Origin: a bacterium
Lineage (GTDB): Bacteria; Chloroflexota; Dormibacteria; Aeolococcales; Bog-877
DNA length: 64,000 nt
Assembly: GCA_021795235.1 (NCBI GenBank)
Contig: JAJYPP010000001.1
Location: 131,384 to 195,383, forward strand
Reading direction: 5' to 3'
The position numbers and the translations under genes were made by a program. This document shows positions 7,731-64,000 of this stretch, in pieces (positions within the stretch are counted from its first letter, which is position 1; each line of letters starts with the position of its first letter). The notes beneath the pieces are model-generated. The model saw nothing but the letters and a program-made list of their open reading frames with translations. It did not search any database and had not been told where the DNA came from.

Positions 7731-7953
7731 GCCTCGGGGGGCGCCGCTGGAGCGGCCGCAGGGGACGCCCGCCACGACCGCGCCGTGCTCGCCAGCAGCG
7801 ACGGCCAGGACCCGGGGTAGTCCGGCGCCATGGGGGAGGGGAGCGTAAGACCAGAGCCAACGGCTCGGGCGGCCCCCTATGGAGCCAAGATCAGTGCGGG
7901 GGCTCTGCCAAGGGGCGCCCGGAGTGGGCTACCCGAGTTCACCGGGCGGCACA
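7722..7953 (+). ncRNA. Shortened, degenerate copy (E) of the ~300-nt structured repeat family
   Basis: Shares GCCAGCAGCGACGGCCAGGAC...CCGGCGCC.UGGG.GAGGGGAGCGTAAGACCAGAGCCAACGGCTCGGGCGGC...GAGTTCAC.CGGGCGGCA with copies A-D. Its 5' GGGAAC overlaps the prpE stop codon. It lacks the CUGGCCGGACAUAGCCAG hairpin. Confidence 0.5.
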
Positions 7954-12565: not shown

Positions 12566-13969
12566 GTGGCTGACAGCACTTTGGTGCGCGCGGTGATTCT
12601 GGCGGCCGGCCGGGGGACGCGGATGGTGTCCTCTCGGTCCAAGCCTCTCCACGAGGTGGGGGGGCTGCCCATGATCCAGCATGTGCTGAGATCGGTGTCG
12701 GAGGTCGTGCCGGAGCCGCCGGTCGTAGTGGTCGCGCCTGGCGACCGCGATCTTGTGGCTCAGCTCGGAGATCGGGCGGTGGCTGTGACTCAGGCCACCG
12801 GCTCCGGGACCGGAGCGGCCGTCCTGGCGGCGCGCGCGGCCCTGGGCTCAGCCGGCGCGGCACTGGTCCTGCCCGCGGACATGCCGCTCCTGTCTCCCTT
12901 GAGCCTGCGCTCACTCCTGGCCACGCTGCAGTCCACCTCGGCGGGAGCGGCCGTGCTGGTAGCCGAGGTAGAGGACGCCGTGTCCTATGGGCGGATCGAG
13001 CGGGATCCCGCAGGCGGCCTGCTGCGCATCGTGGAGGCGGCTGATGAGCCCGCACGGCGCGGAGGCGCCGAGGTGAATTGCGGGGCCTACGTGTTTCGCC
13101 TGCCGCAGCTCTGGGATGCCCTGGCGGATCTGGGCAGTGACAACGCTCAATCGGAGCTCTATCTGAGCTGGGCGCCCGCTCGGATCGCCGGCGGCTGCGC
13201 CCTGGTTTCGTTGCCCGACCCGACCGAGGCCCTGCAGATCAACGACCGGATCCAGCTGGCCAGGGCGGAGGCGGCCCTGAGGCGCCGCACCCTCCGGCGC
13301 CTGATGCTGGAGGGGGTGACGGTGGTTGACCCGGAGTCGACCTGGGTCGACTGCGACGTTCGGGTGGGCTCGGACTCGGTGGTCCATCCCGGCACGGTGC
13401 TGAGGGGTGCGACCGTGGTGGGGCGGCACTGCGAGCTCGGGCCGTTCGCGGAGCTGGATTCCTGCGAGGTCGCCGACGGCTGCCGGGTGGGACGCAGCTC
13501 CCTGCACGGCTGCAAGTTGGAGGAGGGCGCCGACATCGGGCCCTTCAACCGCGTTCGTCCCGGGACCGTGCTCGGGCCCCGCAGCCACCTGGGGACCTTC
13601 ACCGAGGTGGTGCGCAGCCGGGTGGGCGCCGGCAGTCAGGTGCCCCATCTGAGCTACGTGGGGGACGCTGAGCTGGGCGACGACGTCAATGTGGGTGCCG
13701 GCACCATCACGGCCAATTGGGATGGGATCGCCAAGCGGCGCACCGTGGTTGAAGATGGCGTGCGGCTGGGCAGCGACACCATCCTGGTGGCCCCGATCCG
13801 GGTTGGCAAGATGGCTTACACCGCTGCCGGATCGGTCCTGACTGCCGATGTGCCGCCTGGCTCCCTGGCGGTCGCCAGGGTTCCCCAACGCAATCTTGAG
13901 GGTTGGGTCGCGCGCCGTCGCCCTCACGGCAGGCCGGTCGCCGAGGTGGCGGTGGAGGAGGACGGTTGA
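12566..13969 (+). CDS. glmU: Bifunctional UDP-N-acetylglucosamine pyrophosphorylase / glucosamine-1-phosphate N-acetyltransferase
   Basis: N-terminal LAAGRGTRM nucleotidyltransferase motif and C-terminal left-handed beta-helix hexapeptide repeats. 467 aa. Confidence 0.9.
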   Translation: MADSTLVRAVILAAGRGTRMVSSRSKPLHEVGGLPMIQHVLRSVSEVVPEPPVVVVAPGDRDLVAQLGDRAVAVTQATGSGTGAAVLAARAALGSAGAALVLPADMPLLSPLSLRSLLATLQSTSAGAAVLVAEVEDAVSYGRIERDPAGGLLRIVEAADEPARRGGAEVNCGAYVFRLPQLWDALADLGSDNAQSELYLSWAPARIAGGCALVSLPDPTEALQINDRIQLARAEAALRRRTLRRLMLEGVTVVDPESTWVDCDVRVGSDSVVHPGTVLRGATVVGRHCELGPFAELDSCEVADGCRVGRSSLHGCKLEEGADIGPFNRVRPGTVLGPRSHLGTFTEVVRSRVGAGSQVPHLSYVGDAELGDDVNVGAGTITANWDGIAKRRTVVEDGVRLGSDTILVAPIRVGKMAYTAAGSVLTADVPPGSLAVARVPQRNLEGWVARRRPHGRPVAEVAVEEDG

Positions 13970-14919
13970 GGGGAGCCGACGGGCCGCTGATGCTGCTGTG
14001 CGGGACCGCCCACCCCGAGCTGGGGCGCCGGATCTCGGAAGAGGTGGGGGTCTCCCTGACCCCGATGGAGATCACTAGATTCGCGGATGGGGAGTTCGAC
14101 GTCCGGATCGGTGAGTCGGTGCGTGGGCATGACGTCTTCGTGATCCAGCCGACCTGTCCTCCGGTCAACGACAACTACATGGAGCTGTTCGTGATCCTGG
14201 ACGCCCTGCGTCGGGCCAGCGCGGCGCGGATAAACGCGGTGCTGCCCTACTACGGATACCAGCGCAAGGAGAAGAAGACCAGAGCCAGGGATCCCATCTC
14301 GGCCAAGCTCATGGCCAACTTCCTGCAGGTGGCGGGGGCGGAGCGCATGATCGTGCTCGACCTTCACGCAGAGGCAATCCAGGGCTTCTTCGACATCCCC
14401 GTGGACGCGCTGACCGCGAGCAAGATTCTGGCCGGACACATCAGGTCGCGCCACGGCCGTCAGCCCATCGTGGTGGTCTCTCCGGATGTCGGCGGGACCG
14501 CCCGGGCGCGAGCCATCGCCCGCCTTCTGGAGTGTCCTCTCGCCATCATCGACAAGCGGCGCCCGCGCGATGACGACATCGAGGTCCTCAATGTCATCGG
14601 TGACGTCCAGGACAGCACCTGCGTGGTGGTCGACGACCTCATCTCCACCGCCTCCACCCTGGTCGGGGCCGCCCACGCGTTGCGGCAGGGAGGGGCCTCG
14701 TCGGTCGATGTCCTGGCTACCCATGGGGTGCTGAGCGCGGGCTCCCTCGAACGTCTGACCGAAGCCTTCGTGGATGAGGTTGTGGTCACCGACACCATCC
14801 CCCTCTCGGTGGAGGCCGCTCGCAATCCCAAGGTCACCCAGGTGTCGGTGGCTCCCTTGATCGCCGAGGCGATCGTGCGGGTGCATGAGGGGCGATCGGT
14901 GTCAGCTCTGTTTCGATGA
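13966..14919 (+). CDS. prs: Ribose-phosphate pyrophosphokinase
   Basis: Motifs: RFADGE, VVIQ-like VFVIQPTCPP, YYGYQRKEKK, PRPP-binding VVDDLISTASTL. TTG 13966 overlaps the glmU TGA (alternative start ATG 13990). Confidence 0.9.
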   Translation: MRGADGPLMLLCGTAHPELGRRISEEVGVSLTPMEITRFADGEFDVRIGESVRGHDVFVIQPTCPPVNDNYMELFVILDALRRASAARINAVLPYYGYQRKEKKTRARDPISAKLMANFLQVAGAERMIVLDLHAEAIQGFFDIPVDALTASKILAGHIRSRHGRQPIVVVSPDVGGTARARAIARLLECPLAIIDKRRPRDDDIEVLNVIGDVQDSTCVVVDDLISTASTLVGAAHALRQGGASSVDVLATHGVLSAGSLERLTEAFVDEVVVTDTIPLSVEAARNPKVTQVSVAPLIAEAIVRVHEGRSVSALFR

Positions 14920-17179: not shown

Positions 17180-19348
17180 TCAGCCGGCTTGGGCAGCCGG
17201 CGCGCTCGCCAGGAGCAGGTCCTGGCGGTGGTGCCAGTGGTCGTAGAAGCGGCGGAAGTTGAGGCGGCTGAGCCGCTCGCGCTCATCCGGGTCGGTGTCC
17301 TCCCAGCCTCGATGAGTGTGCATCACGGCCGGCAGCTCGGGGAGCCGGCGCTGGGTGAGGCCCCGGGAGCGCAGGTTAAGGCACAGGTCGAAGTCCAGCA
17401 TGCGGTAGAACCGGAACCGCTCGTCGAGCAGGCCCAGTTCCCCAAAACGGCTGCGGCGCAGGGCCAGGCAGTAGCCGTCGATGGCATCCACCTCCTGCTC
17501 CTCGGAGTCGAAGAACTCGCGCAGGTCCAGGGTGCGAGCCCCCCACCTCCCCACCGCGCCGACCTCAGGACTGGCCAGCGCTTCCGCGATGGGGCCGAAG
17601 GCGTCCCCAACCAGTTCCACGCCTGTATCCAGGATCAGCAGCACCCGGCCCCGGGCGGCCCTCACCGTGATGTTGCGGGCGGCCGCCTCCCCCAGGCGGT
17701 GGTCCGCGTGGAATGTGGTGAGGTTGAGTCCGCCGCTCGCCGCCCGCGCCAGAACCGGGCCGCAGTCGGGGGAGGCGTCGTTGTCGACCACCAGGACCTC
17801 CACCGAATGACCGTGGCGGTGGTCGCGGATGCTGGCCAGGCAGCGCCAGAGGTCCTCCGGGTACCCCTGGGTCACGATGCTGACTGAGACCTCGACGCGA
17901 TCTGGTTGACGGCGCTGGTCCACCACCTCCAGAGGGGATGAGATGAGCGCGCGGCGCAGGTCCATGGTGGTCGCTGACCGGTAGTCGGTTCCCTGGGGGC
18001 GATCCTCGGGAACAACCCGCATGCCGATCAGCGCCAGCCGGGCGGCGTCGGCCCTGGCGAAGTCCCGGGCGGCCCGCAGGTGCTCTCTGGTGGCGGCGAC
18101 TGACGTCCAGCTGCCAAAGGCGGGCCGTCCAACCGGCACTCGCTCCACCGCCAGGCCCAAGAACTCATCTGCCCGCCTCAGGCCGAGGGAGCGGGTGGCG
18201 GGTGAGAGGCCCCCATCCCGAGCAAAGCGGAACACCTCCGCCACCGCCTCCGGCAGGTCCAGGTCGTCCTCGAGAGCGGTCCGTACCTTCCCCTGCAGCC
18301 GTTGGGCCGTCACCTCGTCGCCGCCCTGCGGATCGGCGGCTGCGATTCTCCGCAGCCGTTGCAGCCCTCGTTCCGCCGCGGCCAGCGAGGCCAGGGTGAA
18401 ATTGAGCCGGGTGCGGTAGCGCACGGTGGCGCAGAGCAGGCGGAAGGACAGGGGGTCGAACCCGCGCTCCACCAGGTCGTCCACGGTGTAGACGTTGCCG
18501 GAGGACTTGGCCATCTTGATGCCGTCGGCCAGCAGGTGCTGGCCGTGCACCCAGAGCTGGACGAACTGCTCACCGGTCGCGGCCTGGCTCTGGGCGCGCT
18601 CGTCCTCATGGTGGGGGAAGATGTTGTCCACCCCACCGGTGTGGATGTCGATCCGCTCGCCCAGGTAGGCCATCGACATGGCCGAGCACTCGATGTGCCA
18701 GCCGGGAAAGCCGGGCCCGTAGGGGCTATCCCAGACCATCAGCTGGCGGCCCGGTTCGGCCTCTCGCCAGAGCGTGAAGTCTGCGGGATGGTGTTTGTCG
18801 GGATCGGGCTCGGCGCCGCCGCCGACTTGGAGCTGTTCCATGGAGTTGCCGGAGAGCCGCCCGTAGTCGGGATGGCTCTTGGTGTCGAAATACACTGTGC
18901 CGCCCACCCTATAGGCGAACCCGCGCTCCAGCAGCCGAGCGATGAGGTCCAGCATCTGGGGAACGTGGTCCGTGGCGCGGGGAAAGCGGTCGGCGGGCTC
19001 GATACCCATCTGAGCCTCGGCGCGGTGGAATTCATCCTCGAACTGTCTGGCGATCTCTGCGGGAGTGCGTCCGGCCGCCAGGGCTGCCGCGATCACCTTG
19101 TCGCCTCCGCGCTCCGCCATCTCCTGGCGCATGTGGCCGACGTCGGTGATGTTCTTCACGTGGAGCACCTGCCAGCCCTGCGCGCGGGCGGTGCGCTTGA
19201 TCCAATCCGCCATCAGATAGGTGCGCAGATTGCCGACATGGACGGATCGGTATACGGTGGGACCGCAGCTGTACATGGTGAGCCGGTCCGCCGTCAGCGG
19301 TCGCACCGGACGCAGCTCACGGGTGAAGGTGTCATAGAGCCGGAACAC
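17180..19348 (-). CDS. cysS: Cysteine-tRNA ligase fused to a C-terminal family-2 glycosyltransferase domain
   Basis: 722 aa. The N-terminal ~470 aa carry class-I aaRS motifs (CGPTVY..VHVGNLRTY, KMAKSSGN) and a CysRS-type C-terminal tail (ARDFARADAAR...PQGTDY). The last ~240 aa look like GT2 (VSIVT..., VVDNDASPD, ILDTGVEL). Confidence 0.8.
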   Translation of the reverse strand: MFRLYDTFTRELRPVRPLTADRLTMYSCGPTVYRSVHVGNLRTYLMADWIKRTARAQGWQVLHVKNITDVGHMRQEMAERGGDKVIAAALAAGRTPAEIARQFEDEFHRAEAQMGIEPADRFPRATDHVPQMLDLIARLLERGFAYRVGGTVYFDTKSHPDYGRLSGNSMEQLQVGGGAEPDPDKHHPADFTLWREAEPGRQLMVWDSPYGPGFPGWHIECSAMSMAYLGERIDIHTGGVDNIFPHHEDERAQSQAATGEQFVQLWVHGQHLLADGIKMAKSSGNVYTVDDLVERGFDPLSFRLLCATVRYRTRLNFTLASLAAAERGLQRLRRIAAADPQGGDEVTAQRLQGKVRTALEDDLDLPEAVAEVFRFARDGGLSPATRSLGLRRADEFLGLAVERVPVGRPAFGSWTSVAATREHLRAARDFARADAARLALIGMRVVPEDRPQGTDYRSATTMDLRRALISSPLEVVDQRRQPDRVEVSVSIVTQGYPEDLWRCLASIRDHRHGHSVEVLVVDNDASPDCGPVLARAASGGLNLTTFHADHRLGEAAARNITVRAARGRVLLILDTGVELVGDAFGPIAEALASPEVGAVGRWGARTLDLREFFDSEEQEVDAIDGYCLALRRSRFGELGLLDERFRFYRMLDFDLCLNLRSRGLTQRRLPELPAVMHTHRGWEDTDPDERERLSRLNFRRFYDHWHHRQDLLLASAPAAQAG

Positions 19349-40083: not shown

Positions 40084-40120
40084 CCGGAGTTGGGTTGATC
40101 CGGCGGGATCGCTCCGGCGC

Positions 40121-42158: not shown

Positions 42159-42342
42159 CCGGTCGCATCTCCGGTTGTTTACGGGGCTCCGCTCGATGTT
42201 GCCACAGCTCTCCGCCAGAGGATGTCTCTCGCGCCGTGGAATTTGGTCTGTGGCCCTGTGCGGATGATACGCGTGGGCACGCTGGTTCTGCCGGAACCGG
42301 GACGTGGTGGGGAACGCCGTCGCGGAACCTGGTTGGGGTTGC

Positions 42343-42645
42343 GAACAGTTGCACGTACGATGCGCTATAACGAGAGGAGATGAACTTCAAGGAGTGGTAG
42401 CCACTGCCCAAGACCTCTGTCACTGGCCGGACATAGCCAGCCAAAGCGGTGTAGTTGACGCTGCGGCCCCGTTCGCCAGCGAGAGCAGCGACGGCCAGGA
42501 CGCTGGATCATCCGGCGCCGTGGGAGGGAGCGTAAGACCAGAGCCAACGGCTCGGGCGGCACCCGATGAGGCCAAGACCCGTAAGGGAACCCCGAGCAGG
42601 GGTGCCGCAGGAGTGCGCTTCCTATAGTTCACTCGTCGGCAACGG
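42343..42645 (+). ncRNA. Copy A (archetype) of a ~300-nt structured repeat; candidate novel ncRNA or RNA-bearing mobile element
   Basis: 303 nt, intergenic. Nearly collinear with copy C and alignable to B, D and E. Has nested helices, a CCC-GUAA-GGG hairpin and a 9-bp helix 42556-64/42600-08. Overlapping ORFs are not frame-conserved between copies. Confidence 0.65.
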
Positions 42646-42767
42646 GCCGGCAGTCAGCGGGCCAGTCCCCGCACCGGGAACGCCTCGAGCGCGCTCCGCT
42701 GGAATCTGGAAGCGTGGATCGACCGGCGGCAGCCGGTCTCCGCGGCCCACTGGGCCGGCGGAAGAAC

Positions 42768-43238
42768 TCAGTCGAGCGGAGGCGTGGTGGGCACCCGCCG
42801 GCCCCCCAGGACGGCATCCGCGCCAAGTACGTGCAGTCGCACCGTGGATCTGGCGATGGGCCGGCCCGCGGGTTGGTTGGCCTCGGTCGCCTCGTGGATC
42901 AGCACCTCCCAGACCTGGCTCGTCCTGCCAGGATGCACGGGAGTGGCGACGGCCACCACCTCGCCGTCGCGGACCGCGCGCAGGAAACTGGTGTGGTTCT
43001 CGAGCCCCACCACCGGGCGACCACTGTTCAGAGCTGCCCCGATCGAGGCGGCGGTCTCAGCCAGGGTGGCCCAGACTCCGCCGTGGATGACGCCGTAAGG
43101 TTGGCGGTGCTCGGGCCCAAGCCGCAAGCGCAGCCGCACCTCCTGCCCGGAAGCGTCCACGATCTCGGTACCGAGGCGGCCGTCGAAGCCGGTCTCGAGC
43201 GCGCCCGAGTGCTCCGACATCATGCTGGGTGCGCTCAC
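42768..43238 (-). CDS. PaaI/hotdog-fold acyl-CoA thioesterase
   Basis: 156 aa. HGGVWATLAETA motif of the PaaI/DUF4442-type thioesterases. The start overlaps the upstream stop (GTGA). Confidence 0.75.
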   Translation of the reverse strand: MSAPSMMSEHSGALETGFDGRLGTEIVDASGQEVRLRLRLGPEHRQPYGVIHGGVWATLAETAASIGAALNSGRPVVGLENHTSFLRAVRDGEVVAVATPVHPGRTSQVWEVLIHEATEANQPAGRPIARSTVRLHVLGADAVLGGRRVPTTPPLD

Positions 43239-44683
43239 AGTTGCAGGGACTTCGGCATCAGGAATTCCTCCATCCCGAAGCGACCAAACTCCCGCCCATG
43301 GCCGGATTGCTTGAGCCCACCAAAGGGTGCGGAGGTGCTGAACGCGCCCCCGTTGACCTCGACGGTGCCGGCGCGCAACCTGCGTGCGAAGTTGATGGCG
43401 CGGGCGCGGTCCGCAGACCAGACCGCCGCCGCCAGACCATAGGGGGTTCCGTTGGCTATCTCCACCGCCTGGTCCTCGTCGGAGTAGGTGATGATCGAGA
43501 GCACCGGCCCGAAGATCTCTTCCTGGGCGATCACCATCTCCGGCAGCACCTGGTCGAAGATGGTGGGCTGCACGAAGTAGCCTTGCTCCAGGCCATCCGG
43601 AGGCTCCGCTCCTCCCAGCACCAAGCGTGCCCCCTCGGCGACGCCTCGGGCGATGTAACTCCGCACCCGGTCCAGTTGGGCCTGGGAGGCCAGCGGGCCC
43701 AGCCTGGTGGATTCGTCCAGGGGGTCGCCCAGGACCAGCTTACGAGCGGTCGCCACCGCCACCTCGACCGCCGCCGCCGCCATCCGCTCCGGCACCAGCA
43801 GGCGGGTGAGCGCGGTGCAGGTCTGGCCCGAATTGAGAAATGCGTTGTAGACCGCGAACTTGGCGGCGGTGGCGATGTCGGCATCCTCCAGCACCAGGCT
43901 GGCTGACTTTCCGCCCAGCTCCAGGGTCACCGGCTTCACGGTTGCCGCCGCCAGCTCTGAGATGCGCCGACCGGCCTTGGTGGAGCCGGTGAAGGAGACC
44001 TGGTCGACCCCGTGGTGGGTGACCAGCGCCTCACCGGCCACGGCTCCGCGCCCCACCAGGACGTTCATCACTCCCGGTGGCAGCCCCTGAGCCTGGGCGA
44101 TCTCACCGAGCATGAGCGCGGTCAGAGGCGCCACCTCGCTAGCCTTGAGGACCACGGTGGCACCCGCCGCCAGCGCGGCCGCTACCTTGGCCATCACCTG
44201 TTGCAGGGGATAGTTCCAGGGCGTGATCGCTGCCACCACCCCCACTGGCTCTCTGACCACCAGGCAGTTGCCGATCTCCTCCTCGAAGGGGTAGTCGCGC
44301 AGGATCTCCGCGATGTGGGCGGTGATGGCGATGGGGTTGCCCAGCTGAACCGCCCGTGACTGACGGATCGGAGTCCCCACCTCCTGCGAGATGGTCCGAG
44401 CCAATTCTTCGGTTCTGCCCTTGATGCCCTCGGCCAGCATGGCCAGGTGGTCGGCTCTCTGCACGGGTGGGGTCGCAGCCCATCCGGGGAGGGCTCGCCG
44501 GGCGGCCGAGACGGCTTGGTCCACATCCTCGCCTTCGGCGTCGGCCACCTCCGCCAGGGTTGCTCCGCTGGCGGCTTCGGTGACCGTCAGCCGCCCTGGC
44601 GATCGCGGGTCTGTGAATTCTCCGCCTATGAAGAACTGGCCCTGATGCTTCGGGTCAGTGCCGCCGTCTGCGCCCGCGGTCAA
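43235..44683 (-). CDS. NAD(P)-dependent aldehyde dehydrogenase
   Basis: ALDH motifs FTGST, ELGGKS, and the catalytic Cys region GQTCTA. 482 aa. Confidence 0.9.
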   Translation of the reverse strand: MTAGADGGTDPKHQGQFFIGGEFTDPRSPGRLTVTEAASGATLAEVADAEGEDVDQAVSAARRALPGWAATPPVQRADHLAMLAEGIKGRTEELARTISQEVGTPIRQSRAVQLGNPIAITAHIAEILRDYPFEEEIGNCLVVREPVGVVAAITPWNYPLQQVMAKVAAALAAGATVVLKASEVAPLTALMLGEIAQAQGLPPGVMNVLVGRGAVAGEALVTHHGVDQVSFTGSTKAGRRISELAAATVKPVTLELGGKSASLVLEDADIATAAKFAVYNAFLNSGQTCTALTRLLVPERMAAAAVEVAVATARKLVLGDPLDESTRLGPLASQAQLDRVRSYIARGVAEGARLVLGGAEPPDGLEQGYFVQPTIFDQVLPEMVIAQEEIFGPVLSIITYSDEDQAVEIANGTPYGLAAAVWSADRARAINFARRLRAGTVEVNGGAFSTSAPFGGLKQSGHGREFGRFGMEEFLMPKSLQL

Positions 44684-46112: not shown

Positions 46113-46204
46113 GGTGCCCACCTGGCTTGCGCTCCCAGCCGCCCGCCCCTTGCCCGCCCCGACTGGTGAGGCAGCCGCCGCAATCAGGGAACTCGCCAAG
46201 GTTG

Positions 46205-46492
46205 GAACAGGTGCTCGTGGGAGCTGCGGTTCGCGCTGATGAACTTGAAGGAGTGGCAGCCACCGCAGGAAATCTCCGTGACCGGCCGGACATGGCCAGC
46301 GCCAGCGGGGTGGCCGCCTCTCCGCCTGCCAGCAGCGACGGCCAGGACGCTGGATGATCCGGCGCCGTGGGAGGGAGCGTAAGACCAGAGCCAACGGCTC
46401 GGGCGGCACCCGGTGAGGCCAAGACCCGTAAGGGAACCCCGAGAAGGGGTGCCGCAGGAGTTCGCTCACTATGGTTCACTCGGCGGCAACGG
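46205..46492 (+). ncRNA. Copy B of the ~300-nt structured repeat
   Basis: 288 nt between tetR and the helicase-nuclease operon. It shares the conserved blocks, with a ~15-nt shorter central arm. Its 3' terminal motif GTTCACTCGG is repeated again at 46516-46526. Confidence 0.6.
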
Positions 46493-46720
46493 GGACGGCC
46501 CATTCCGGTCACCAGAGTTCACTCGGATGCCCGGCAGAGCCGGCCGGGCGGAGCCAGGAGGAGCTGAGGCCGCCCCGGGGGGCGGGGACTGCGTCGGCCT
46601 GGCCCCCTGCCGTACGCTCGTGCGCGGTGCGGTGCGCGGAGCGGCGGCGTCCACTTCAGCGACTGGAGGTCTGATCTGAGGGATTCGGTAGACCGTCTCT
46701 GGGTTGTCGGACCCACCCGG

Positions 46721-55037: not shown

Positions 55038-55796
55038 ATGGGACTGGATACGCCTCGGAGGTTGCCGGGTGAGCGTGACCGCCAGCTCCGACACCACGCC
55101 TTGCAGGGGGCGCTGGCAGGGATCAGGCGCCGTTACGGTCCCGGGGTGGTGCGCTTGGGTGGGGATGCTCAGAGTGGGGGGCTGAAGACTGGAGCCAGTT
55201 CCCTGGATGCGCTCTTCCCCGGCCTGGGTATCCCCCGAGGGCGGCTCAGCTGGCTCGAGGGCGGACCAGGAGAGGGTGCCTTCGACCTCGGGTTGGTGTT
55301 GCTGGCAGAGATGTCGAAGGAGCTGCCGGTGGCTCTGGTCGACTTTGGGCAGAGCGTGGATCCCGGTGATGTGGCGGATTACGGAGGTCGGCTGGAGAAC
55401 TGCTGGTGGGTGCGCCCCGCCCGGCCGGAGCAGGGCTGGGCGGCGGCGCGCGCCCTGGTGCTGGCCGGCGTTGACTTCTGCCTCTTGCTGGCGGGGAGAT
55501 GGTCCCCGGTGGACAGGGCGGTCCCCGCTGTGCTGCTGGCGGCATTGGAGGAGAGGGGCGCGGCGGCGCTCCTGGCCGGAGGGTCGGAGGTGCCGGCGGT
55601 TGTGGGAGGAAGGCTGGGGGTGCAGATCTCCTGCCGCCGGGAGGGCTGGGCCAATGTCCACGGGGATGTGGCCGGGATCCGGGTCCGGCTCGACGTGGTC
55701 CGCAGCCGGCTCGGTCCGCCGGGAGCGGCCTGCCGGCTCAAGATCGGCTTCCCTCGGCCCTATCCGAACCGGGCTGGGATTGTGGACCCGGGGTAG
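55038..55796 (+). CDS. imuA: RecA-fold ImuA-like protein (SOS mutagenesis cassette component)
   Basis: The N-terminus ALQGALAGIRRRYGPGVVRLGG mirrors the RecA N-terminus. LDALFPGLGIPRGRLSWLEG replaces the P-loop region. It sits immediately upstream of imuB. Confidence 0.6.
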   Translation: MGLDTPRRLPGERDRQLRHHALQGALAGIRRRYGPGVVRLGGDAQSGGLKTGASSLDALFPGLGIPRGRLSWLEGGPGEGAFDLGLVLLAEMSKELPVALVDFGQSVDPGDVADYGGRLENCWWVRPARPEQGWAAARALVLAGVDFCLLLAGRWSPVDRAVPAVLLAALEERGAAALLAGGSEVPAVVGGRLGVQISCRREGWANVHGDVAGIRVRLDVVRSRLGPPGAACRLKIGFPRPYPNRAGIVDPG

Positions 55797-55797
55797 G

Positions 55798-56100
55798 GAA
55801 CAGTTGCTCGTACGATGTGCTATAGTTGGTCCTGATGAGCTTCAAGGAGGGGTAGCCACTGCCCAAAACCTCCGTGACTGGCCGGACATAGCCAGCCCAA
55901 GCGGTGTAGTTGACGCCGCGGCCCCGCCCGCCAGCGAGAGCGGCGACGGCCAGGACGCTGGATCATCCGGCGCCGTGGGAGGGAGCGTAAGACCAGAGCC
56001 AACGGCTCGGGCGGCACCCGATGAGGCCAAAACCCGTAAGGGAACCCCGAGAAGGGGTGCCGCAGGAGTGCGCTTACTACAGTTCACTCGGCGGCAACGG
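55798..56100 (+). ncRNA. Copy C of the ~300-nt structured repeat, inserted between imuA-like and imuB
   Basis: 303 nt, starting 2 nt after the imuA-like TAG and ending 56 nt before the imuB TTG. It is collinear with copy A. Contains TGCTATAGT (55818-55826), an extended -10-like motif just upstream of the 5' strand of the closing helix. Confidence 0.65.
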
Positions 56101-56156
56101 CGACTGGAGGCCGGCGATGTCGACTCCGAGGAGATGCGGGCGGAGGCGGTGGGAGG

Positions 56157-57383
56157 TTGAGGGGGCTGCCCCGCCTGGGGTTTCTGGGATTTCCGCATCT
56201 GGCCCTCATCCTGGCCTGGCAGGCGCACCCCGAGCTGGTCTCCGCGGCACTGCTGGTGGGCTCCCCGGCCGCCTTTGGCCGGGAGGCCGTGCTGGCCGCC
56301 TCGGAGGCGGCTGCAGCCAGGGGTGTCCATCCTGGGCAGGACTTTCGCCAGGCGGAGCTGGCCTGTCCGGAAGCCGTCCGGTTGCGGGCCGACCAGGTCG
56401 CGCTCGCCAGATTGCGGGAGCAGCTGCTGATGGCGCTATACGACTGCAGCCCGCTGGTGGAGTTGAGCGATGACACCGGGGCATATGTGGACCTCGGCGG
56501 TCGGGATCCGCGCTGGCAGACCGAGGCTGCTCGGGCCTCGCATCTCGGCCGCGCGGTGCAGCAGCTCTTGGGGCCGGCTCCTGCGGTGGGGGTGGGGCAG
56601 TCACGCTTCGTGGCCCAGGCCGCGGCCGCTCGAGCCGGCTCGGGGAGAATCCGGCTGGTCCCTCCCGGCGCCGCGGCCGCATTCCTGGCCGACTGGCCGG
56701 TGACCCGACTGCCATTGCCACCACGGACGGTGGATCAACTGCTCGGTTTCGGTCTGCGCACCTGCGGTGACTGCTTGGCCATACCCCTGCCAGACCTGCA
56801 GCGCCAACTGGGCCCCGACGGCCTCATGCTGCACCGGCTCTGCCTCGGCCAGGACGCTGCCACCATCCATCCGCGGCGGGAGCTGCCGCCCTGCTCGGTG
56901 CGACGGGTGCTGGCGGGGGTGGTGGAGAACTCGGAGTCGCTGCGCTTCGGCGCTCCAGAACTGGCTGCTCTGCTCGCCTCCGAGCTGGCCCACCTCAATC
57001 TGGCCAGCGGCCGGCTGCGGCTGCTGTTGCTGGATGAGGATGCCGCTGAGGGCGTCGTCCGCTCGGACCAGCCGGGCGTCTGCTGCGCCGAGGTGACCAC
57101 CCCGTCGCTGGTAGCCACCGCCGAGGAACTGCTCCCACCCATCCTGGGCCTGCTCTCCCGAGCGCGCGGTAGGGCTCTGGTCGTCGAGCTCCATGCCCTT
57201 GACCTGGCTCCGCCCCCGGTTGCGCAGAGGCGCCTATGGGCGGTGGCAGAAGGCAGAGGCGAGGAGATAGGGCGGGCGGTGGCCAGGCTCCGGGAGCGGT
57301 TCGGCCCCGAGCTGGTCTGGAGGGTTGAACTCAGACCACTGCACCCAGGCGACATCCCCGAGGAGCGGCTGGTGTGGAGCTGA
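56157..57383 (+). CDS. imuB: ImuB-type Y-family DNA polymerase homolog (likely catalytically inactive)
   Basis: Y-family palm/fingers layout (FPHLAL..., CSPLVELSDDTGAYVDL, GVGQSRFVAQAAA) but without the N-terminal DxD catalytic motif. TTG follows GGTGGGAGG. Confidence 0.7.
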   Translation: MRGLPRLGFLGFPHLALILAWQAHPELVSAALLVGSPAAFGREAVLAASEAAAARGVHPGQDFRQAELACPEAVRLRADQVALARLREQLLMALYDCSPLVELSDDTGAYVDLGGRDPRWQTEAARASHLGRAVQQLLGPAPAVGVGQSRFVAQAAAARAGSGRIRLVPPGAAAAFLADWPVTRLPLPPRTVDQLLGFGLRTCGDCLAIPLPDLQRQLGPDGLMLHRLCLGQDAATIHPRRELPPCSVRRVLAGVVENSESLRFGAPELAALLASELAHLNLASGRLRLLLLDEDAAEGVVRSDQPGVCCAEVTTPSLVATAEELLPPILGLLSRARGRALVVELHALDLAPPPVAQRRLWAVAEGRGEEIGRAVARLRERFGPELVWRVELRPLHPGDIPEERLVWS

Positions 57384-59671: not shown

Positions 59672-59889
59672 GCCCCACCGTCTGGGGCGCTGCTCCTGGT
59701 GCTCGGCCCGGGGACAGGTCGGTAGGACGCCGCGCGATTCCTCGGGCGGATGCCGGTCACGAGACCGTCGGGCCTCTCGATCGATTCCCTGGGTAGGCGC
59801 CCCGCCCAGGACCAGGGCCGCCAAGGAACCTTCCCGGTGGCGCTGGACCAGGGCTCGCGGCGCATCGGCCCGGAACTGTTGGAAGGGGG

Positions 59890-60191
59890 GAGCGGTTGCC
59901 CCAAGAAGAGCTATGGGTGGCGCGGGTCAACTTGAAAGCGTGGTGGCCACTGCCCGAAATCTCGGTGGCTGGCCGGACACAGCCGGCACAAGCGGTGCGG
60001 CCGACGGCGCGCCCGCGCCCGCCCGCGGCGATGGCGGGCCGCTGGATCATCCGGCCCCATGGGAGGGGCGCAAGGCCAGAGCCGATGGTTCGGACAGAAC
60101 TGGACGAGGCCGGAACCCATGGGGGAAGCCCGAGAAGGCGTGCCCTATGACTGCGCCGAACGGAGTTCCCTTACAGTGACGCGGCTGCTGG
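59890..60191 (+). ncRNA. Copy D (most divergent full-length copy) of the ~300-nt structured repeat
   Basis: 302 nt between the convergent ftsH and surface-protein genes. It retains GCCACUGCCC, CUGGCCGGACA.AGCC.GC, GCUGGAUCAUCCGGC, UGGGAGGG.GCG.AAG.CCAGAGCC and CCCGAGAAGG.GUGCC. Substitutions keep several helices paired. Confidence 0.6.
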
Positions 60192-60329: not shown

Positions 60330-62570
60330 TCAGGCTTGGGTCTTGGCCCGACGTCGGGTCAGAAGCGCGAGCCCGAGGAGGCTGAGCCCTGCGAGAACCA
60401 GGATCAGGGTCAGCAGGAGATCGAGGTGAGCTCCTGTGCCGGGAGTTGATGCCCCCAGCACCGCACCGGCGGGCGCGGGAGTCTTCTTAGTGGTGCTGGC
60501 ACCCAGTACGGCCTGCTTGGGCGTGGGTGCCGTGGTGGTGACGGTGGCCGTGCAGGAGGCTGTTGTGGTGCATCCGCCGTCACCGGAGGTCGCCGTGACA
60601 GCGTTGGTGAGGCTGAAGAGGCCGTTCACGGCGGTGCTCAGGTTGCCCGGAGCCAGCATGGTGGCGCTGTAGGTCACCGTCGCTGTCTGCCCGACAGCCA
60701 GGCTGGCGTACTCCCAGGTGTAGGAACCCGGACCCGTCGATCCGAAGTTGATCGCCGCGGCGCCGCTGGGCGACGAGGAGAAGCTGAAGGAGTCCCGGGT
60801 GCCGTGGGTGCCATCGTTGACCTGGACGGCCGCGGTTCCGCTCATGACGTCGTTCATGACCACGTCCGTGGCCGCTGCGGTACCCGAGTTGGTCACGGTG
60901 ATGGTGTAGTTGAGAGTCTGACCGAGCGTGGTCGAGGTGGTGTCGACCGCCTTGGTGACAGTCAGGATCGGGGCGCCGCCAGAGGTCGGTGGCCCGGGGG
61001 TGATGACTGTCGACGAGCTGCTGGCGGAGGCCGTCTGATTGTGGGCTGCGACATCAACCGTCACTGTGTCGGTGAGGCTGCTGCCGGCCGCCGGCCCGTA
61101 GCCGGTGACGCTGAAGTAGCAGGTGACGGTGTCGCCAGGCTGTCCGGCCGGGGCCAGGGTGGTGGGAGCACTGACAAGAGAGCCACACTCGGAGTAGGAG
61201 TGGCCCGAGTAGCTGTCGGTGATCAAGGTGATGGTCTCCGAGACCCGGCTGGTGTTGGTGATCACCGCCCGGAAGGGAACGGTCTCCTTAGCGGTGCCGA
61301 ACTCGATCTTGCCGTAGCCGGCCAGGTTGGCGTCATTGGTCTTGTCGACGCTGACGCCGGGGGACCCAGGGGTAGGCGGGGTTACCCGTGGGGTGGTCAC
61401 CGTGGAGGAGCTGCTGCCGGAGGCGGTCTTGGTGCCGGCGGTGACACCAACTGTCACGGTGTCGGTCAGGCTGGTCCCTGCCGCTGGAGCGTAGCCGGTG
61501 ATCGAGAACGAGCAGGTGACGGTGTCGCCCGCCTGTCCGGCCGGGGCCAGGGTGGTTCCGATCAGCCCGCTGCACTCAGACGCCGGGGTGCCGTTGGCGA
61601 TACCGGGGTAGTTGTCGGTTATCGATTTGATCGTCTCCGAGACATCGCTGGTGTTGGTGATCACAGCCTGGAAGGGGACCGTCTCGCCGACGCCGGTGGC
61701 GGTCTCATTCTTGCCGTAGCCTTGGCCGCTGGCGTTGTTGGTCTTGTCGACGCTGACGCCAGGGGTCCCCGGAGGCGGAGGCGGAGTCGGCGCCGGGCAG
61801 TTCACCCAGAAGGTCTTGTGCTTCTGGGGGTCCTGGGAGAACTGGAGCTTGAAGTGGTAGCCCTGCCCGTTGATCGGCGCGTCGCCGTTGGCCTGGGCGT
61901 CGGCGATCAGGATTCCCACGTTGATGACACTCATGATCTGGTCGCCGCTCCCCGTGTAGCTCCAGAGCTGAGTGCCTGACGCGGGATAGGCCTGGTCCGA
62001 GAACCCGCTGCCGCTGGGCGACCAGCCATCGATGGTGTAGGTGCCGGCGGAGTCGGCCATGAAGTTGCCCCAGAGGTTGATGTTGGAGCACGCCAGGTGG
62101 GGGTCATGCTCGTGGCCGGGCCCGGCGGGTTGGCCCACGTTGTCGAGCCACACATCCCCGTGGTTGTTGTCGCCCGCGGAGGTCGAGCTGGAGCCGCTAT
62201 TGGTCCCGGGGGACGAGCTTCCGTTGGTGGTGGGAGGTGGCGGCCCGTAGTTGCCAGCGGAGTTGTTGGAGCCGGAAGGGCTCTGGCTGGAGGATGTCGA
62301 TGAGTTGGAGCCAGAGGAGTTTGAGGACGAATTGGACTGCTGGCTGGAGCCACTCGCTCCACTGGAGCTGGATGTAGAGGAGGACCCGGAGTGCCCCTGT
62401 CCATGGCTTCCCGAGTTGCCATGCTCAGCCGACGCGCCCGGGGAGCTGCTGTTGGGGCCGTGGCCACCACCCGAGTCCGCCAGCACCGAGGCGGGGGCTG
62501 CCAGAAGCAGCGCAGCCACTCCCAGGCTGGTGAGAATGAATGACCATCGACTCGAACCCTTGCGTATCAC
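60330..62570 (-). CDS. Large secreted cell-surface protein: Ser-rich linker, tandem ~125-aa Ig-like repeats, DUF11-type repeat, C-terminal sortase-like anchor
   Basis: GTG 62570 is preceded by AAGGAGAGG. Signal peptide MIRKGSSRWSFILTSLGVAALLLAAPASVLA. Two repeats begin PGVSVDKTN. ILTVTKAVD...YTITVTNSG matches the DUF11 type. The C-terminus is TPGTG plus a hydrophobic helix plus RRRAKTQA. Confidence 0.75.
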   Translation of the reverse strand: MIRKGSSRWSFILTSLGVAALLLAAPASVLADSGGGHGPNSSSPGASAEHGNSGSHGQGHSGSSSTSSSSGASGSSQQSNSSSNSSGSNSSTSSSQSPSGSNNSAGNYGPPPPTTNGSSSPGTNSGSSSTSAGDNNHGDVWLDNVGQPAGPGHEHDPHLACSNINLWGNFMADSAGTYTIDGWSPSGSGFSDQAYPASGTQLWSYTGSGDQIMSVINVGILIADAQANGDAPINGQGYHFKLQFSQDPQKHKTFWVNCPAPTPPPPPGTPGVSVDKTNNASGQGYGKNETATGVGETVPFQAVITNTSDVSETIKSITDNYPGIANGTPASECSGLIGTTLAPAGQAGDTVTCSFSITGYAPAAGTSLTDTVTVGVTAGTKTASGSSSSTVTTPRVTPPTPGSPGVSVDKTNDANLAGYGKIEFGTAKETVPFRAVITNTSRVSETITLITDSYSGHSYSECGSLVSAPTTLAPAGQPGDTVTCYFSVTGYGPAAGSSLTDTVTVDVAAHNQTASASSSSTVITPGPPTSGGAPILTVTKAVDTTSTTLGQTLNYTITVTNSGTAAATDVVMNDVMSGTAAVQVNDGTHGTRDSFSFSSSPSGAAAINFGSTGPGSYTWEYASLAVGQTATVTYSATMLAPGNLSTAVNGLFSLTNAVTATSGDGGCTTTASCTATVTTTAPTPKQAVLGASTTKKTPAPAGAVLGASTPGTGAHLDLLLTLILVLAGLSLLGLALLTRRRAKTQA

Positions 62571-63039: not shown

Positions 63040-64000
63040 GCTGGTTACATTAACAACTTGAGATGCGGTGTGGCGGTCCAGTCACGCGGACTGAAGGCTT
63101 TGTTACATTGACTGACCCTTCTCTAATCGTGGATGACCGGGCCCAATAGCGCAGCGATCCGGCCCCTGGCTTGCCGTGCAGGAGTGGCGAGGTCGATACC
63201 GGGCCCGCCGCCCGGGGAGTTCGGTCGGGGTTCTTGCCAACACTTGTGGAAATTCCTTCCAGGAAGGCGAGTCAGTTGGGCAAGCGGCAGAGCCCTCCAA
63301 GGTGGGTGGTTGAGTTCGTTGCAGACGGCCGTCGACAAAGCGTTCGCCGGCGAGCAATAGGGTGAGCTGGTTACGTCCGTTGATGGGGTGCCACCTGGTG
63401 CCTAGCCGCAGGACCAGCTTGAAGACCAGGTAGAGCGCGTTCTCGCGCACGTGCATGCGCTTGGTGGCATCGGTCCGGAGCCGCACCCCAGCGAAGATCG
63501 ACCGGATGGGATTGGAGGTGCGGAGGTGGAGCCAGTGCTCCTCGGGGAAGTCGTAGAAGGTGACGAACTCGTCCCAGTCCCGCTCCAAGCAGTCGGCCGC
63601 ATCGCCCTGAGCCTGGGCGCGCAGCTGGGTGCAGTACTCAGCCCGCCGCCTACTGCACTCAGCCCTGGAGGGAGCCTGGTAGATCTCCTTGATCGCACCT
63701 CGCGCCGTGGCCTGTAGCCGCTTGGGGAGCTTGTCGATGACATTGAGGACCCGGTGGTTCCAACACCGTTGCTGGCGGGTCGTCGGGAACACCTCGTTGA
63801 GGGCCGCCCAGAACCCCAGTCCGCCATCGCCGATGGCCAGCAGAGGCGGCTCCGTGAGTCCCCGGGACTTCAGATCCCGAAGCAGCTCCCCCCAGGAGGC
63901 GGCGCTCTCCCGGTAGCCCTGCTGCATCGCCAGCAGCTCCTTGTGGCCGTCAGCTCTCACCCCCAGGACCACCAGCACGGCGGTCCTCTCCTTCTCCAAC
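63040..64000 (-). mobile_element. Partial IS256-family insertion sequence (inner boundary not determined)
   Basis: The transposase ORF runs off the window. The left IS end is expected within ~100 nt of the stop at 63103, but I could not identify the terminal inverted repeat without the other end. Confidence 0.5.
63103..63999 (-). CDS. IS256-family (Mutator-type) transposase; the N-terminus lies beyond the window edge
   Basis: Family-typical segments CWNHRVLNVIDKLPKR, FYDFPEEHW.HLRTSNPIRSIFA, RMHVRENALYLVFKL. Confidence 0.85.
   Translation of the reverse strand: MEKERTAVLVVLGVRADGHKELLAMQQGYRESAASWGELLRDLKSRGLTEPPLLAIGDGGLGFWAALNEVFPTTRQQRCWNHRVLNVIDKLPKRLQATARGAIKEIYQAPSRAECSRRRAEYCTQLRAQAQGDAADCLERDWDEFVTFYDFPEEHWLHLRTSNPIRSIFAGVRLRTDATKRMHVRENALYLVFKLVLRLGTRWHPINGRNQLTLLLAGERFVDGRLQRTQPPTLEGSAACPTDSPSWKEFPQVLARTPTELPGRRARYRPRHSCTASQGPDRCAIGPGHPRLEKGQSM

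What the first reader, a model, noticed from the sequence alone, without database searches (positions are those of the whole stretch)
42343..42645. Multi-copy ~300-nt structured, non-coding element family that I cannot place in any known RNA class (archetype copy A)
Five copies lie in 64 kb, all on the + strand and all intergenic regardless of neighbouring gene orientation: A 42343-42645, B 46205-46492, C 55798-56100, D 59890-60191, and a shortened E at 7722-7953. A, C and D are 302-303 nt. Conserved blocks are GCCACUGCCC, CUGGCCGGACAUAGCCAG, GCUGGAUCAUCCGGC, UGGGAGGGAGCGUAAGACCAGAGCC and CCCGUAAGGGAACCCCGAG.AGGGGUGCC. Several helices are supported by changes between copies. (1) Closing helix UGAACU 42381-86 / AGUUCA 42626-31 in A becomes UGAGCU/AGUUCA in C (G-U), UGAACU/GGUUCA in B (U-G) and GUCA(A)CU/AGUGAC in D (different sequence, still paired). 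(2) CGCUGC 42459-64 / GCAGCG 42485-90 in A becomes CGCCGC 55914-19 / GCGGCG 55940-45 in C, a double compensatory change. (3) Hairpin CUGGC/GCCAG becomes CUGGC/GCCGG in D. (4) Hairpin GAGCC/GGCUC becomes GAGCC/GGUUC in D. (5) An invariant 9-bp helix 42556-64/42600-08 encloses a CCC-GUAA-GGG hairpin. An outer pairing or terminal inverted repeat (CAGUUGC near the 5' end with GGCAACGG at the 3' end) is also present. ORFs over the copies are in different frames or interrupted, so conservation is at the RNA/DNA level. From memory it does not resemble RNase P, tmRNA, SRP, 6S, group II domain V or any riboswitch class I know. Possible identities are an orphan guide/scaffold RNA of a mobile element (HEARO/omega-RNA-like), an RNA-carrying MITE, or a new multi-copy ornate RNA.
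Basis: seen in the sequence. Interest (0 to 1): 0.85.

Follow-up and report, generated by a model that had tools for sequence, protein, structure and literature searches.

The report
Small mobile repeat with IS607-like ends
The five ~300-base repeats are real and match no described RNA family, but they are copies of a small gene-less jumping element in an uncultured soil bacterium (Dormibacterota), and the claimed RNA structure is only weakly supported.

Summary
There are five + strand copies: A 42339-42645, B 46202-46492, C 55794-56100, D 59887-60191, and a shorter E ~7742-7953. None matches Rfam 15, and substitutions show no codon periodicity.

The copies are mobile DNA. The window comes from a Candidatus Dormibacterota metagenome genome. 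Sister genomes with ~90% identity at third codon positions carry an empty site, ...GACCTGGGG^CGACTGG..., exactly where C sits. C is a 307-nt insertion in the 3' end of imuA with no target duplication. A is also absent there. B, D and E have positional counterparts that are decaying. More distant relatives have none.

Every copy follows ..GG and the non-E copies end in ..GG. There are no real terminal inverted repeats. This is the signature of IS607-family serine-recombinase transposons, whose right ends encode TnpB guide-RNA scaffolds. My best reading is therefore an ORF-less IS607-like mini-element whose conserved 3' ~155-nt module may be such a scaffold. No partner gene was found and RAGATH-18 does not match.

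Covariation is not significant with eight copies, and the "invariant" 9-bp helix is broken in three of them. I rate this a new member of a known kind, of moderate interest.

The parts
42339..42645 (+). Copy A, full-length (307 nt). The left flank ends GGGG (42335-42338) and the element ends CAACGG. It lies antisense between the aldehyde dehydrogenase/thioesterase genes and the MFS transporter gene.
   Evidence: It is absent from sister genomes L021/L022, where the intergenic stretch is 181 nt against 596 nt here.
46202..46492 (+). Copy B (291 nt, with 3+6+6-nt deletions relative to A). The left flank ends AAGG and the element ends CAACGG. It lies between tetR and adnA.
   Evidence: A positional counterpart exists in L016 at 392-702 at 72% identity. 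Its 3' half is 96-98% identical to A and C.
55794..56100 (+). Copy C (307 nt), inserted in the 3' end of imuA. It begins TAG, which creates a premature stop, and ends CAACGG.
   Evidence: Empty sites in L016/L018 read ...GTGGACCTGGGG^CGACTGGAGG.... Empty sites are also seen in L004-L008 and L012-L014. The blastn breakpoints overlap by 2 nt, the GG.
59887..60191 (+). Copy D (~305 nt, start +/-1), a decayed copy between ftsH and a DUF11/CLIPPER surface-protein gene. It ends GCTGCTGG.
   Evidence: A positional counterpart exists in L016 at 13713-14055 at 77% identity.
7742..7953 (+). Copy E, a short variant. Only the 3' module (from ~7783) is homologous to A-D, and the 5' part is unrelated. It follows a G-run directly after the acyl-CoA synthetase stop codon.
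   Evidence: A counterpart exists in L023 at 11925-12146 at 87% identity. The left boundary is not established.
42491..42645 (+). The 3' module of copy A (155 nt), shared by all copies. It is a candidate TnpB-type guide-RNA scaffold plus transposon right end. The predicted fold has a hairpin at 42491-42521. A long-range helix pairs GAGCGUA with UGCGCUU and closes two further stem-loops (42538-42555 and 42556-42608).
   Evidence: Model R1, searches and pair counts.
42493..42557 (+). The most conserved core (element positions 151-215): GGCCAGGACGCUGGAUCAUCCGGCGCCGUGGGAGGGAGCGUAAGACCAGAGCCAACGGCUCGGGC.
   Evidence: Identity is 98-100% among A, B and C, 89% to E, 95% to the old copy in L016 and 81% to D. 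Neighbouring segments are 22-76% identical.
55790..55793 (+). Target G-run (GGGG) abutting the left end of C. The last GG is the presumed crossover dinucleotide and matches the GG at 56099-56100.
   Evidence: All five left flanks end in GG, with background P(GG)=0.123.
56101..56160 (+). Detached tail of the ancestral imuA reading frame (CGA CTG GAG ... GGT TGA). It still overlaps the imuB start as in relatives, and precise removal of C would restore the frame.
   Evidence: Read directly from the sequence against L016, L012 and L014.

Best explanation
The copies belong to a lineage-restricted family of ORF-less, non-autonomous transposable elements. They are about 305 nt long, with a shorter variant of about 210 nt. 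They most likely derive from an IS607-family transposon and are moved in trans by its enzymes.

Shown:
- They insert and are polymorphic between near-identical genomes.
- Insertion is at a (G)GG, leaves no target duplication, and the element itself ends in GG. An empty site therefore has one GG and a filled site has GG on both sides.
- There are no real terminal inverted repeats.
- The family has been active for a long time. B, D and E predate the split from the sister genome, and A and C postdate it.

Inferred:
- A serine-recombinase transposase (TnpA) encoded elsewhere in the genome excises the element as a circle and integrates it by exchange across the GG.
- The conserved 3' ~155-180 nt is the transposon right end. 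As in IS607 and TnpB systems, it would be transcribed into a guide-RNA (omega/reRNA) scaffold.
- The guide would be the DNA just past ...CAACGG. A TnpB nuclease could then cut the emptied site (G-rich motif plus flank) and have the element copied back.
- The variable 5' ~125 nt is the left end.
- Old copies that are no longer mobilised decay.
For: Mobility:
- Exact empty sites for C are present in L016/L018 and in eight more distant relatives.
- A is absent from L021/L022.
- No copies occur in syntenic loci of genomes with 68-81% ImuB identity, by nhmmer or by covariance model.
- The other assembly (ERZ27237159) breaks inside C: contig L003/L020 begins within it.

Junctions:
- Left flanks read TGGGG|, CAAGG|, CGGGG| and GAAGG|. 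In the counterparts they read CAGGG| and ACGGG|.
- Right ends read ..ACGG|..ACGG|..ACGG| and ..CTGG|. In the counterparts they read ..TCGG| and ..GCGG|.
- GG before all five copies has P about 3e-5.

Literature:
- The IS607 family has no TIR and makes no TSD. It terminates in GG and integrates strictly at GG, with (G)GG or TGGG preferred (PMC6188088; bioRxiv 10.1101/2023.11.20.567912; PMC13565253).
- The Cbo omega-RNA scaffold ends ...UCGG next to a TGGG motif. This is the same nGGG versus nCGG contrast as GGGG versus ACGG here.
- The IS607 TnpB reRNA scaffold is 187 nt, lies outside the coding sequence, and uses G-rich TAMs (PMC11061315).
- ORF-less IS607-type derivatives exist in nature, for example the 482-nt BcISt1 (PMC4227781).

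Modularity and conservation:
- E shares only the 3' module.
- The core at positions 151-215 is far better conserved than the rest.
- Wobble pairs favour the + strand, with 20 G-U against 6 A-C.
Against: - No tnpA or tnpB partner with matching ends was found.
- The window holds only an IS256-family transposase.
- The one TnpB family seen in sister genomes (L021, L025, L026) has a right end ...GAGACGCT. That is not GG, and it shows no similarity to this element.
- RAGATH-18 and all other Rfam models fail to match.
- The 'three stem-loops plus pseudoknot' architecture described for omega RNAs could not be demonstrated.
- Covariation is not significant.
- All five copies share one orientation. IS607 does not predict this, although the chance probability is 1/16.
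- All five left flanks carry GGA(A)C 4-14 nt upstream of the junction GG (a GGAAC/GGAC within the 25 nt upstream), against P about 0.015 per site. Reported IS607 targets show no preference beyond (G)GG.
Confidence: 0.4

Rival explanations
1. It is a plain MITE-like mobile element of some other or unknown transposon family, with no RNA function. The conserved core is a transposase-binding or recombination site in DNA. The apparent folding is what a 68% G+C sequence gives anyway.
For: - Insertion polymorphism is shown.
- Covariation is not significant with 8 copies.
- The fold z-score is only -2.4 on the + strand against -1.4 on the - strand.
- Old copies lose the main helix without compensation.
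- No partner gene is identified.
Against: - It lacks the terminal inverted repeats and target duplications of DDE-type MITEs.
- The best-conserved part is internal rather than terminal.
- There is a G-U over A-C bias on the + strand.
- A few double changes occur in the long-range helix, with AU in 4 copies and GC in 3 at one pair.
Confidence: 0.25
2. It is a non-autonomous derivative of an IS200/IS605 element (a PATE). It would be moved as single-stranded DNA by a Y1 TnpA on the lagging-strand template, and would carry a TnpB or IscB guide-RNA scaffold.
For: - All five copies are in one orientation on the strand with positive GC skew.
- There is no TSD and no TIR.
- TnpB-only IS605-like elements do exist in sister genomes.
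- The hairpin-rich sequence folds best on the + strand.
Against: - GG at both the target and the right end is the IS607 signature, not that of IS200/IS605. IS200/IS605 elements insert after AT-rich 4-5-mers (PMC13565253).
- There is no strong subterminal hairpin at the left end.
- There is no similarity to the lineage's own TnpB element ends.
- HEARO and IS605-orfB Rfam models do not match.
Confidence: 0.1
3. It is a family of chromosomal small-RNA genes or cis-regulatory leaders tied to DNA-repair genes (adnAB, imuA/imuB, a glycosylase). It would have been duplicated rather than transposed.
For: - B lies upstream of adnAB, C lies between imuA and imuB, and E is about 1.2 kb from an HhH-GPD gene.
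- The core sequence is conserved even in old copies.
Against: - Relatives with the same gene order lack the copies.
- C truncates imuA rather than serving it.
- A is antisense to both of its neighbours, and D and E sit between convergent genes.
- Gene calls show that E is followed by a - strand gene, not by the glycosylase.
- D and its counterpart evolve at about the neutral rate.
Confidence: 0.07
4. It is an intron-like element, such as an ORF-less IStron or small group I intron, that splices out of host transcripts. That would make the imuA insertion harmless.
For: - Removing exactly 55794-56100 restores the imuA frame, and the detached tail is still open.
- IS607-type IStrons, including ORF-less ones, are known (PMC4227781; 10.1101/2023.11.20.567912).
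Against: - There is no hit to the Rfam group I or group II models even at E<=10 with lax filters on three copies.
- The upstream exon ends in G, not U.
- Four of the five copies are not in genes.
- At 305 nt the element has little room for both ends and a ribozyme.
- Scarless excision at GG explains the frame restoration at the DNA level.
Confidence: 0.04

Closest known systems
IS607-family transposons and their ORF-less or mini derivatives (e.g. IS607, IS1535, CboIStron mini-IS, the 482-nt ORF-less BcISt1)
   Same: - Integration is at (G)GG and the element ends in GG.
- There is no target duplication and no real inverted repeats.
- The flank is G-rich (nGGG) while the right end reads nCGG.
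- A non-coding right-end module of about 155-190 nt is the conserved part.
- Gene-less derivatives exist in nature.
   Different: - No serine recombinase or TnpB with matching ends has been seen.
- There is no group I intron.
- It is far smaller than any autonomous member.
- It occurs in Dormibacterota.
- It has an extra GGA(A)C motif upstream of the target.
- All five copies are in one orientation.
TnpB omega/reRNA scaffolds (RAGATH-18-derived reRNA of IS607 TnpB; ISDra2 reRNA)
   Same: - It sits at the 3' end of the element and runs up to the transposon boundary.
- The length is comparable (155-187 nt).
- It has several consecutive stem-loops.
- It lies outside any coding sequence.
   Different: - There is no sequence or structure match to RAGATH-18 or any Rfam model.
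- The nexus/3'-end pseudoknot could not be shown.
- There is no adjacent TnpB.
PATEs and MITEs of IS200/IS605 (palindrome-associated transposable elements)
   Same: - They are short, gene-less, structured and strand-biased.
- They make no target duplication and are mobilised in trans.
   Different: - The target and end motif here is GG, not an AT-rich 4-5-mer.
- There is no strong left subterminal hairpin.
- It is unrelated to the TnpB-only elements of the same lineage.
HEARO / IscB omega RNA
   Same: It is a large (~300 nt) structured RNA associated with a mobile element, and orphan copies of such RNAs are known.
   Different: - The Rfam HEARO model does not match.
- The IscB guide lies 5' of the scaffold, and those elements are IS200/IS605-type.

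Membership tests
IS607-family transposon (non-autonomous derivative) | Integrates at a GG dinucleotide, with (G)GG preferred | tested here: met
   The empty site in L016/L018 reads CTGGGG^CGAC. All five left flanks end in GG, and most end in GGG or GGGG. Background P(GG) is 0.123.
IS607-family transposon (non-autonomous derivative) | Element terminates in GG | tested here: met
   The ends read ACGG in A, B and C, CTGG in D, TCGG in the L016 counterpart of B and GCGG in the L016 counterpart of D. E ends ..CACA and does not fit, but it is a degenerate copy.
IS607-family transposon (non-autonomous derivative) | No target-site duplication | tested here: met
   The filled and empty sites for C differ by exactly the element. 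Only the GG is shared, and the blastn breakpoints overlap by 2 nt.
IS607-family transposon (non-autonomous derivative) | No terminal inverted repeats; short subterminal repeat motifs bound by TnpA | tested here: inconclusive
   Only a 5-bp GTTGC/GCAAC match exists at the ends, and it is imperfect in B, C and D. GAAC/GTTC and CACT motifs recur near both ends, but no helically phased array was shown (read from the sequence).
IS607-family transposon (non-autonomous derivative) | A serine-recombinase TnpA (with or without TnpB) with the same ends is present in the genome | not testable with these tools
   Only about 80 kb of this genome and about 60 kb of the sister genomes could be read, and none was found there.
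TnpB omega/reRNA (incl. RAGATH-18) | Match to the family's covariance model | tested here: not met
   Rfam 15 gives no hit at gathering threshold or at E<=10 on A, D or E.
TnpB omega/reRNA (incl. RAGATH-18) | Consecutive stem-loops upstream of the guide, with a pseudoknot between the first stem-loop and the scaffold 3' end | tested here: inconclusive
   Stem-loops are predicted, but no conserved or covarying loop-to-3'-end pairing was found. Several alternative pairings exist in this G+C-rich sequence.
TnpB omega/reRNA (incl. RAGATH-18) | Encoded directly downstream of, or overlapping, a tnpB gene, or bound by TnpB | tested here: not met
   No tnpB lies next to any of the eight copies. The TnpB loci of the lineage (L021, L025, L026) have unrelated 3' regions. 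Binding in trans is untestable here.
Group I intron / IStron | Group I ribozyme core (P3-P9) detectable, and a U at the 5' splice site | tested here: not met
   There is no Intron_gpI hit at E<=10, and the upstream flank ends in G.
Conserved structured RNA (any new class) | Statistically supported covariation across copies | tested here: not met
   On 8 copies, 68/500, 15/500 and 54/500 shuffles reach the observed values. For the full structure on 5 copies the figures are 63/500, 35/500 and 109/500. The sample is too small for a firm negative.
DDE-type MITE | Terminal inverted repeats flanked by a target-site duplication | tested here: not met
   Neither is present.

The most novel reading that the evidence does not exclude
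The 3' module, and above all its 65-nt core, may be a previously undescribed guide or scaffold RNA class. It would ride on gene-less mini-transposons and work in trans with a nuclease or recombinase encoded elsewhere. It would be kept under selection at individual loci even after the copy can no longer move, making it a dispersed library of orphan guide RNAs in an uncultured phylum.
Probability: 0.15. Interest if true: 0.7.

Novelty: new member of a known kind. Interest (0 to 1): 0.42.

Why it matters
If the IS607-like reading is right, this is a compact natural example of a transposon reduced to its two ends plus a possible guide-RNA scaffold, in the uncultured phylum Dormibacterota.

- The dated insertions (old B, D, E and young A, C) and the exact empty sites make it a clean system for asking how gene-less elements persist.
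- A cognate TnpB might be a G-rich-TAM nuclease from a high-G+C organism.
- The imuA insertion separates imuA from imuB in the mutagenic-polymerase cassette, which may alter damage-induced mutagenesis in this strain.

If it is only a MITE, it is a routine annotation item that should be masked so that gene callers do not create spurious ORFs over it.

Tried and rejected
Searches for more copies:
- Exact-pattern scans for the conserved block found 0 hits in genome contigs, one chance hit L001 in metagenome contigs and 0 in viral contigs.
- blastn of A against plasmids and phages gave no match.
- A six-frame 'spurious ORF' protein search for copies miscalled as genes found nothing.
- I used the window's IS256 transposase as a portal to other contigs of the same genome.

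Tests of specific ideas:
- A DNA-repair riboswitch or leader was rejected once the empty sites appeared.
- An ECF-type promoter (GGAAC...GTT) spanning the left junction was rejected because the spacing is 13-19 nt and inconsistent.
- A LexA/Cheo box at GAACAGTTGC has only one good half-site.
- A guide-like pairing between flanks and internal loops, as in IS110 bridge RNA or intron EBS/IBS, showed no consistent or covarying pairing.
- The TnpB fragment in sister genome L021 was tested as the partner. Its right end and 3' RNA region are unrelated.
- The mini-ORF MNFKEW* in A (MSFKEG* in C) is not conserved in B or D.
- The nucleotide-level empty site for A could not be fixed because the intergenic DNA is too diverged.

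Full report
OBSERVATION. The repeats are real. The repeat finder, MAFFT, an nhmmer profile and a covariance model all recover exactly five copies, all on the + strand. No further copies were found in the window, in 8.7 kb to its left (L015), or in about 5.6 kb to its right (L002). Identity to A is 91% for C, 84% for B, 70% for D and 63% for E. Conservation is mosaic. Element positions 151-215 are 98-100% identical among A, B and C and 89% to E, whereas the first 50 nt are 22-76% identical. E shares only the 3' module. Rfam 15 gives nothing at gathering threshold and only noise at E<=10 on A, D and E. Substitutions show no codon periodicity and the reading frames carry stops or shifts, so the family is non-coding.

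WHERE THE WINDOW COMES FROM. Exact-protein look-ups place the window on ENA metagenome contigs (ERZ27236955 k141_791205) and on a 224-kb NCBI MAG contig. The nearest genomes are Candidatus Dormibacterota/Dormibacteria MAGs. The window is ordinary chromosome: respiration, amino-acid and cell-wall genes, tRNA synthetases, RecO, PPDK, AdnAB, imuA-imuB, FtsH. Its only transposase is an IS256-family gene at 63103 to the window end.

THE COPIES ARE INSERTIONS. Gene order tetR-adnA-adnB-...-HU-imuA-imuB-ftsH is conserved in eight relatives with 68-81% ImuB identity. In all of them imuA runs into imuB and there is no element.

- The decisive comparison is with sister genomes L016, L017 and L018. These are GCA_054609635.1, GCA_054608095.1 and a Logan assembly, with ImuB >=90% identical and third-codon identity to the window of 89-90%.
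- Their sequence reads ...GGGATTGTGGACCTGGGG^CGACTGGAGGTTGGCGATG....
- The window reads ...GGGATTGTGGACCCGGGG|TAGGGAACAG...GGCGGCAACGG|CGACTGGAGGCCGGCGATG....
- The blastn breakpoints overlap by two bases, the GG.
- C is therefore a 307-nt insertion (55794-56100) with no target duplication. It puts a TAG stop into imuA, shortening it from 271 to 252 aa, and moves imuB 361 nt away.
- A is also missing from the sister genomes. The aldehyde-dehydrogenase/thioesterase to MFS spacer is 181 nt there against 596 nt here, and no profile hit occurs. The exact junction could not be aligned.
- B, D and E have positional counterparts in the sister genomes, at 72%, 77% and 87% identity.

The family has thus been active both before and after the split of these two genomes. 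In the other assembly a contig begins inside C, as expected for a repeat.

JUNCTION ANATOMY. Anchored on the verified C junction, every copy is preceded by GG.

- Left flanks: A TTGGGG|, B CCAAGG|, C CCGGGG|, D GGAAGG|, E a run of six G.
- Left flanks in the sister-genome counterparts: CAGGG| and ACGGG|.
- Right ends of the non-E copies: CAACGG| three times, GCTGCTGG|, GCTCGG| and GCAGCGG|.
- GG occurs before a random position with P=0.123, so five of five has P about 3e-5.
- The ends share only a 5-bp GTTGC/GCAAC match.

This is the published signature of IS607-family elements. They have no inverted repeats, make no target duplication, terminate in GG and integrate strictly at GG, with (G)GG or TGGG preferred, by serine-recombinase exchange over the 2-bp core (PMC6188088; bioRxiv 10.1101/2023.11.20.567912; PMC13565253). 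In the Clostridium botulinum element the flank motif is TGGG and the guide-RNA scaffold, which is the right end, finishes ...UCGG. Here the corresponding pair is GGGG and ...ACGG, and one counterpart has ...TCGG. IS607 TnpB guide RNAs have a 187-nt scaffold that lies wholly outside the coding sequence and use G-rich TAMs (PMC11061315). Gene-less IS607-type derivatives occur naturally (PMC4227781). The module shared by all copies here, including E, is the 3' ~155-180 nt running up to the right boundary. That is where such a scaffold would be.

STRUCTURE. The + strand of A folds to -125.5 kcal/mol with z=-2.4. The - strand gives z=-1.4.

- A hand-built model of 60 pairs is 91% paired over five copies, against 31-46% when the partners are slid. 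Shuffles reach the observed covariation often: 35/500, 63/500 and 109/500.
- On five copies that model looks better (2/500), but it was derived from the same alignment.
- After adding the three sister-genome copies the support fades to 68/500, 15/500 and 54/500. The 9-bp helix is only 69% paired and is broken without compensation in three copies.
- Points in favour of an RNA on the + strand are 20 G-U against 6 A-C cells in pairs and one pair with AU in four copies and GC in three.

My reading is that a fold is plausible for the young copies but is not demonstrated. Old copies are decaying. D and its counterpart differ about as much as unconstrained DNA does (77% identity against 81-93% for nearby intergenic DNA). 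The 65-nt core is conspicuously retained, at 95% between the old L016 copy of B and copy A while its neighbouring segments are 49-72%. Selection, or gene conversion among copies, could both explain this. B's 3' half is 96-98% identical to A and C while its 5' half is about 70%, which points to conversion.

SEARCH FOR A PARTNER. None was found.

- Sister genome L021 has a TnpB fragment (PF07282, E 9e-13) inserted at the PPDK/Usp junction, where the window is empty.
- Full-length members of that TnpB cluster (L025, L026) show a right end ...GAGTTGCAGAGACGCT followed by unrelated flanks. The element does not end in GG.
- The RNA region of that element has no similarity to this family.
- RNA-guided transposon nucleases therefore exist in this lineage, but this one is not the cognate.

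UNEXPLAINED. All five left flanks contain GGAAC (GGAC in C) 4-14 nt upstream of the junction GG. The background frequency of GG plus this motif within 25 nt is about 0.015 per site. In C the motif is native imuA sequence, conserved in relatives, so it is a property of the target and not part of the element. It is lost in the L016 flank of B. IS607 is not reported to have such a preference. The shared orientation of all five copies on the G-rich strand is also unexplained, although with five copies chance is 1/16.

VERDICT. This is a real, previously uncatalogued repeat family, and it is mobile DNA rather than a conserved chromosomal RNA gene.

- Mobility is near certain.
- An IS607-like mechanism is the best-supported specific model, at about 0.4.
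- An omega-RNA-type function for the 3' module is a reasonable inference, at about 0.3, but is untested.
- The claim of a new ornate RNA class supported by covariation is not upheld.

I file it as a new member of a known kind: gene-less derivatives of IS607- and TnpB-type transposons. Interest is moderate.

Noticed in passing
window 55038-57383 with L002 17470-20700: The imuA-imuB-dnaE2 mutagenesis cassette is split up in this genome. Element C lies between imuA and imuB. Then ftsH, element D, a DUF11/CLIPPER surface-protein gene and an IS256-family transposase come before dnaE2. In relative L013, dnaE2 follows ftsH with only a DUF429 gene between them.
   Followed up: partly
L021 14218-14984 (-); L025 485-1921; L026 311-2089; window 40084-40120 is the empty site: A TnpB-only element is inserted at the 3' end of the PPDK gene in sister genomes. 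Its right end reads ...CGCTTAGAGTCGCTTAGAGTTGCAGAGACGCT. Contigs break in it repeatedly, so it is multi-copy. The called ORF runs about 140 aa past the RuvC-III motif, probably through its guide-RNA region.
   Followed up: partly
window 42283-42338, 59830-59886, 46185-46201, 7716-7741: GGAAC motifs recur upstream of the insertion sites: three times before A, and GGAAC/GGACC/GGAAC before D. GAAC/GTTC also recurs inside the element (positions 1-6, 39-44, 284-289). This may be a recombinase-binding or target-preference motif.
   Followed up: partly
window 63103-64000 (-): An IS256-family (Mutator-type) transposase gene runs off the window end. In L002 it is called as 478 aa, about 60 aa longer than its 419-aa homologues. 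Its best homologue is 95% identical and comes from another Dormibacteria MAG.
   Followed up: partly
window 60997-61781: Diverged tandem repeats of about 400 nt (76-82% identity) lie inside the DUF11/CLIPPER surface-protein gene. The gene length differs between strains (746, 766 and 597 aa in L002, L003 and L016).
   Followed up: no
window 17180-19348 (-): A 722-aa protein combines a class-I cysteinyl-tRNA-synthetase-type catalytic domain with a C-terminal family-2 glycosyltransferase domain. The fusion is also present in the sister genome (L023 21633 onward).
   Followed up: no
window 46516-46530: Thirty-five nt downstream of B, the flank repeats the element's own 3' motif AGTTCACTCGG. The corresponding sequence in relative L012 is only loosely similar, so it may be chance or a trace of an older end.
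   Followed up: partly
window 42373-42400 and 55828-55855: A Shine-Dalgarno-like GAGGAG is followed by a 6-codon mini-ORF (MNFKEW* in A, MSFKEG* in C) in the 5' part of the element. It is not conserved in B or D. It could be a remnant of a transposase start region.
   Followed up: no
window 42646-43234: About 590 nt between copy A and the next supported gene have no convincing coding signal. About 100 nt of it have no counterpart in the sister genome. The 242-aa ORF at 42714-43442 has no Pfam hit and overlaps the aldehyde dehydrogenase gene.
   Followed up: no
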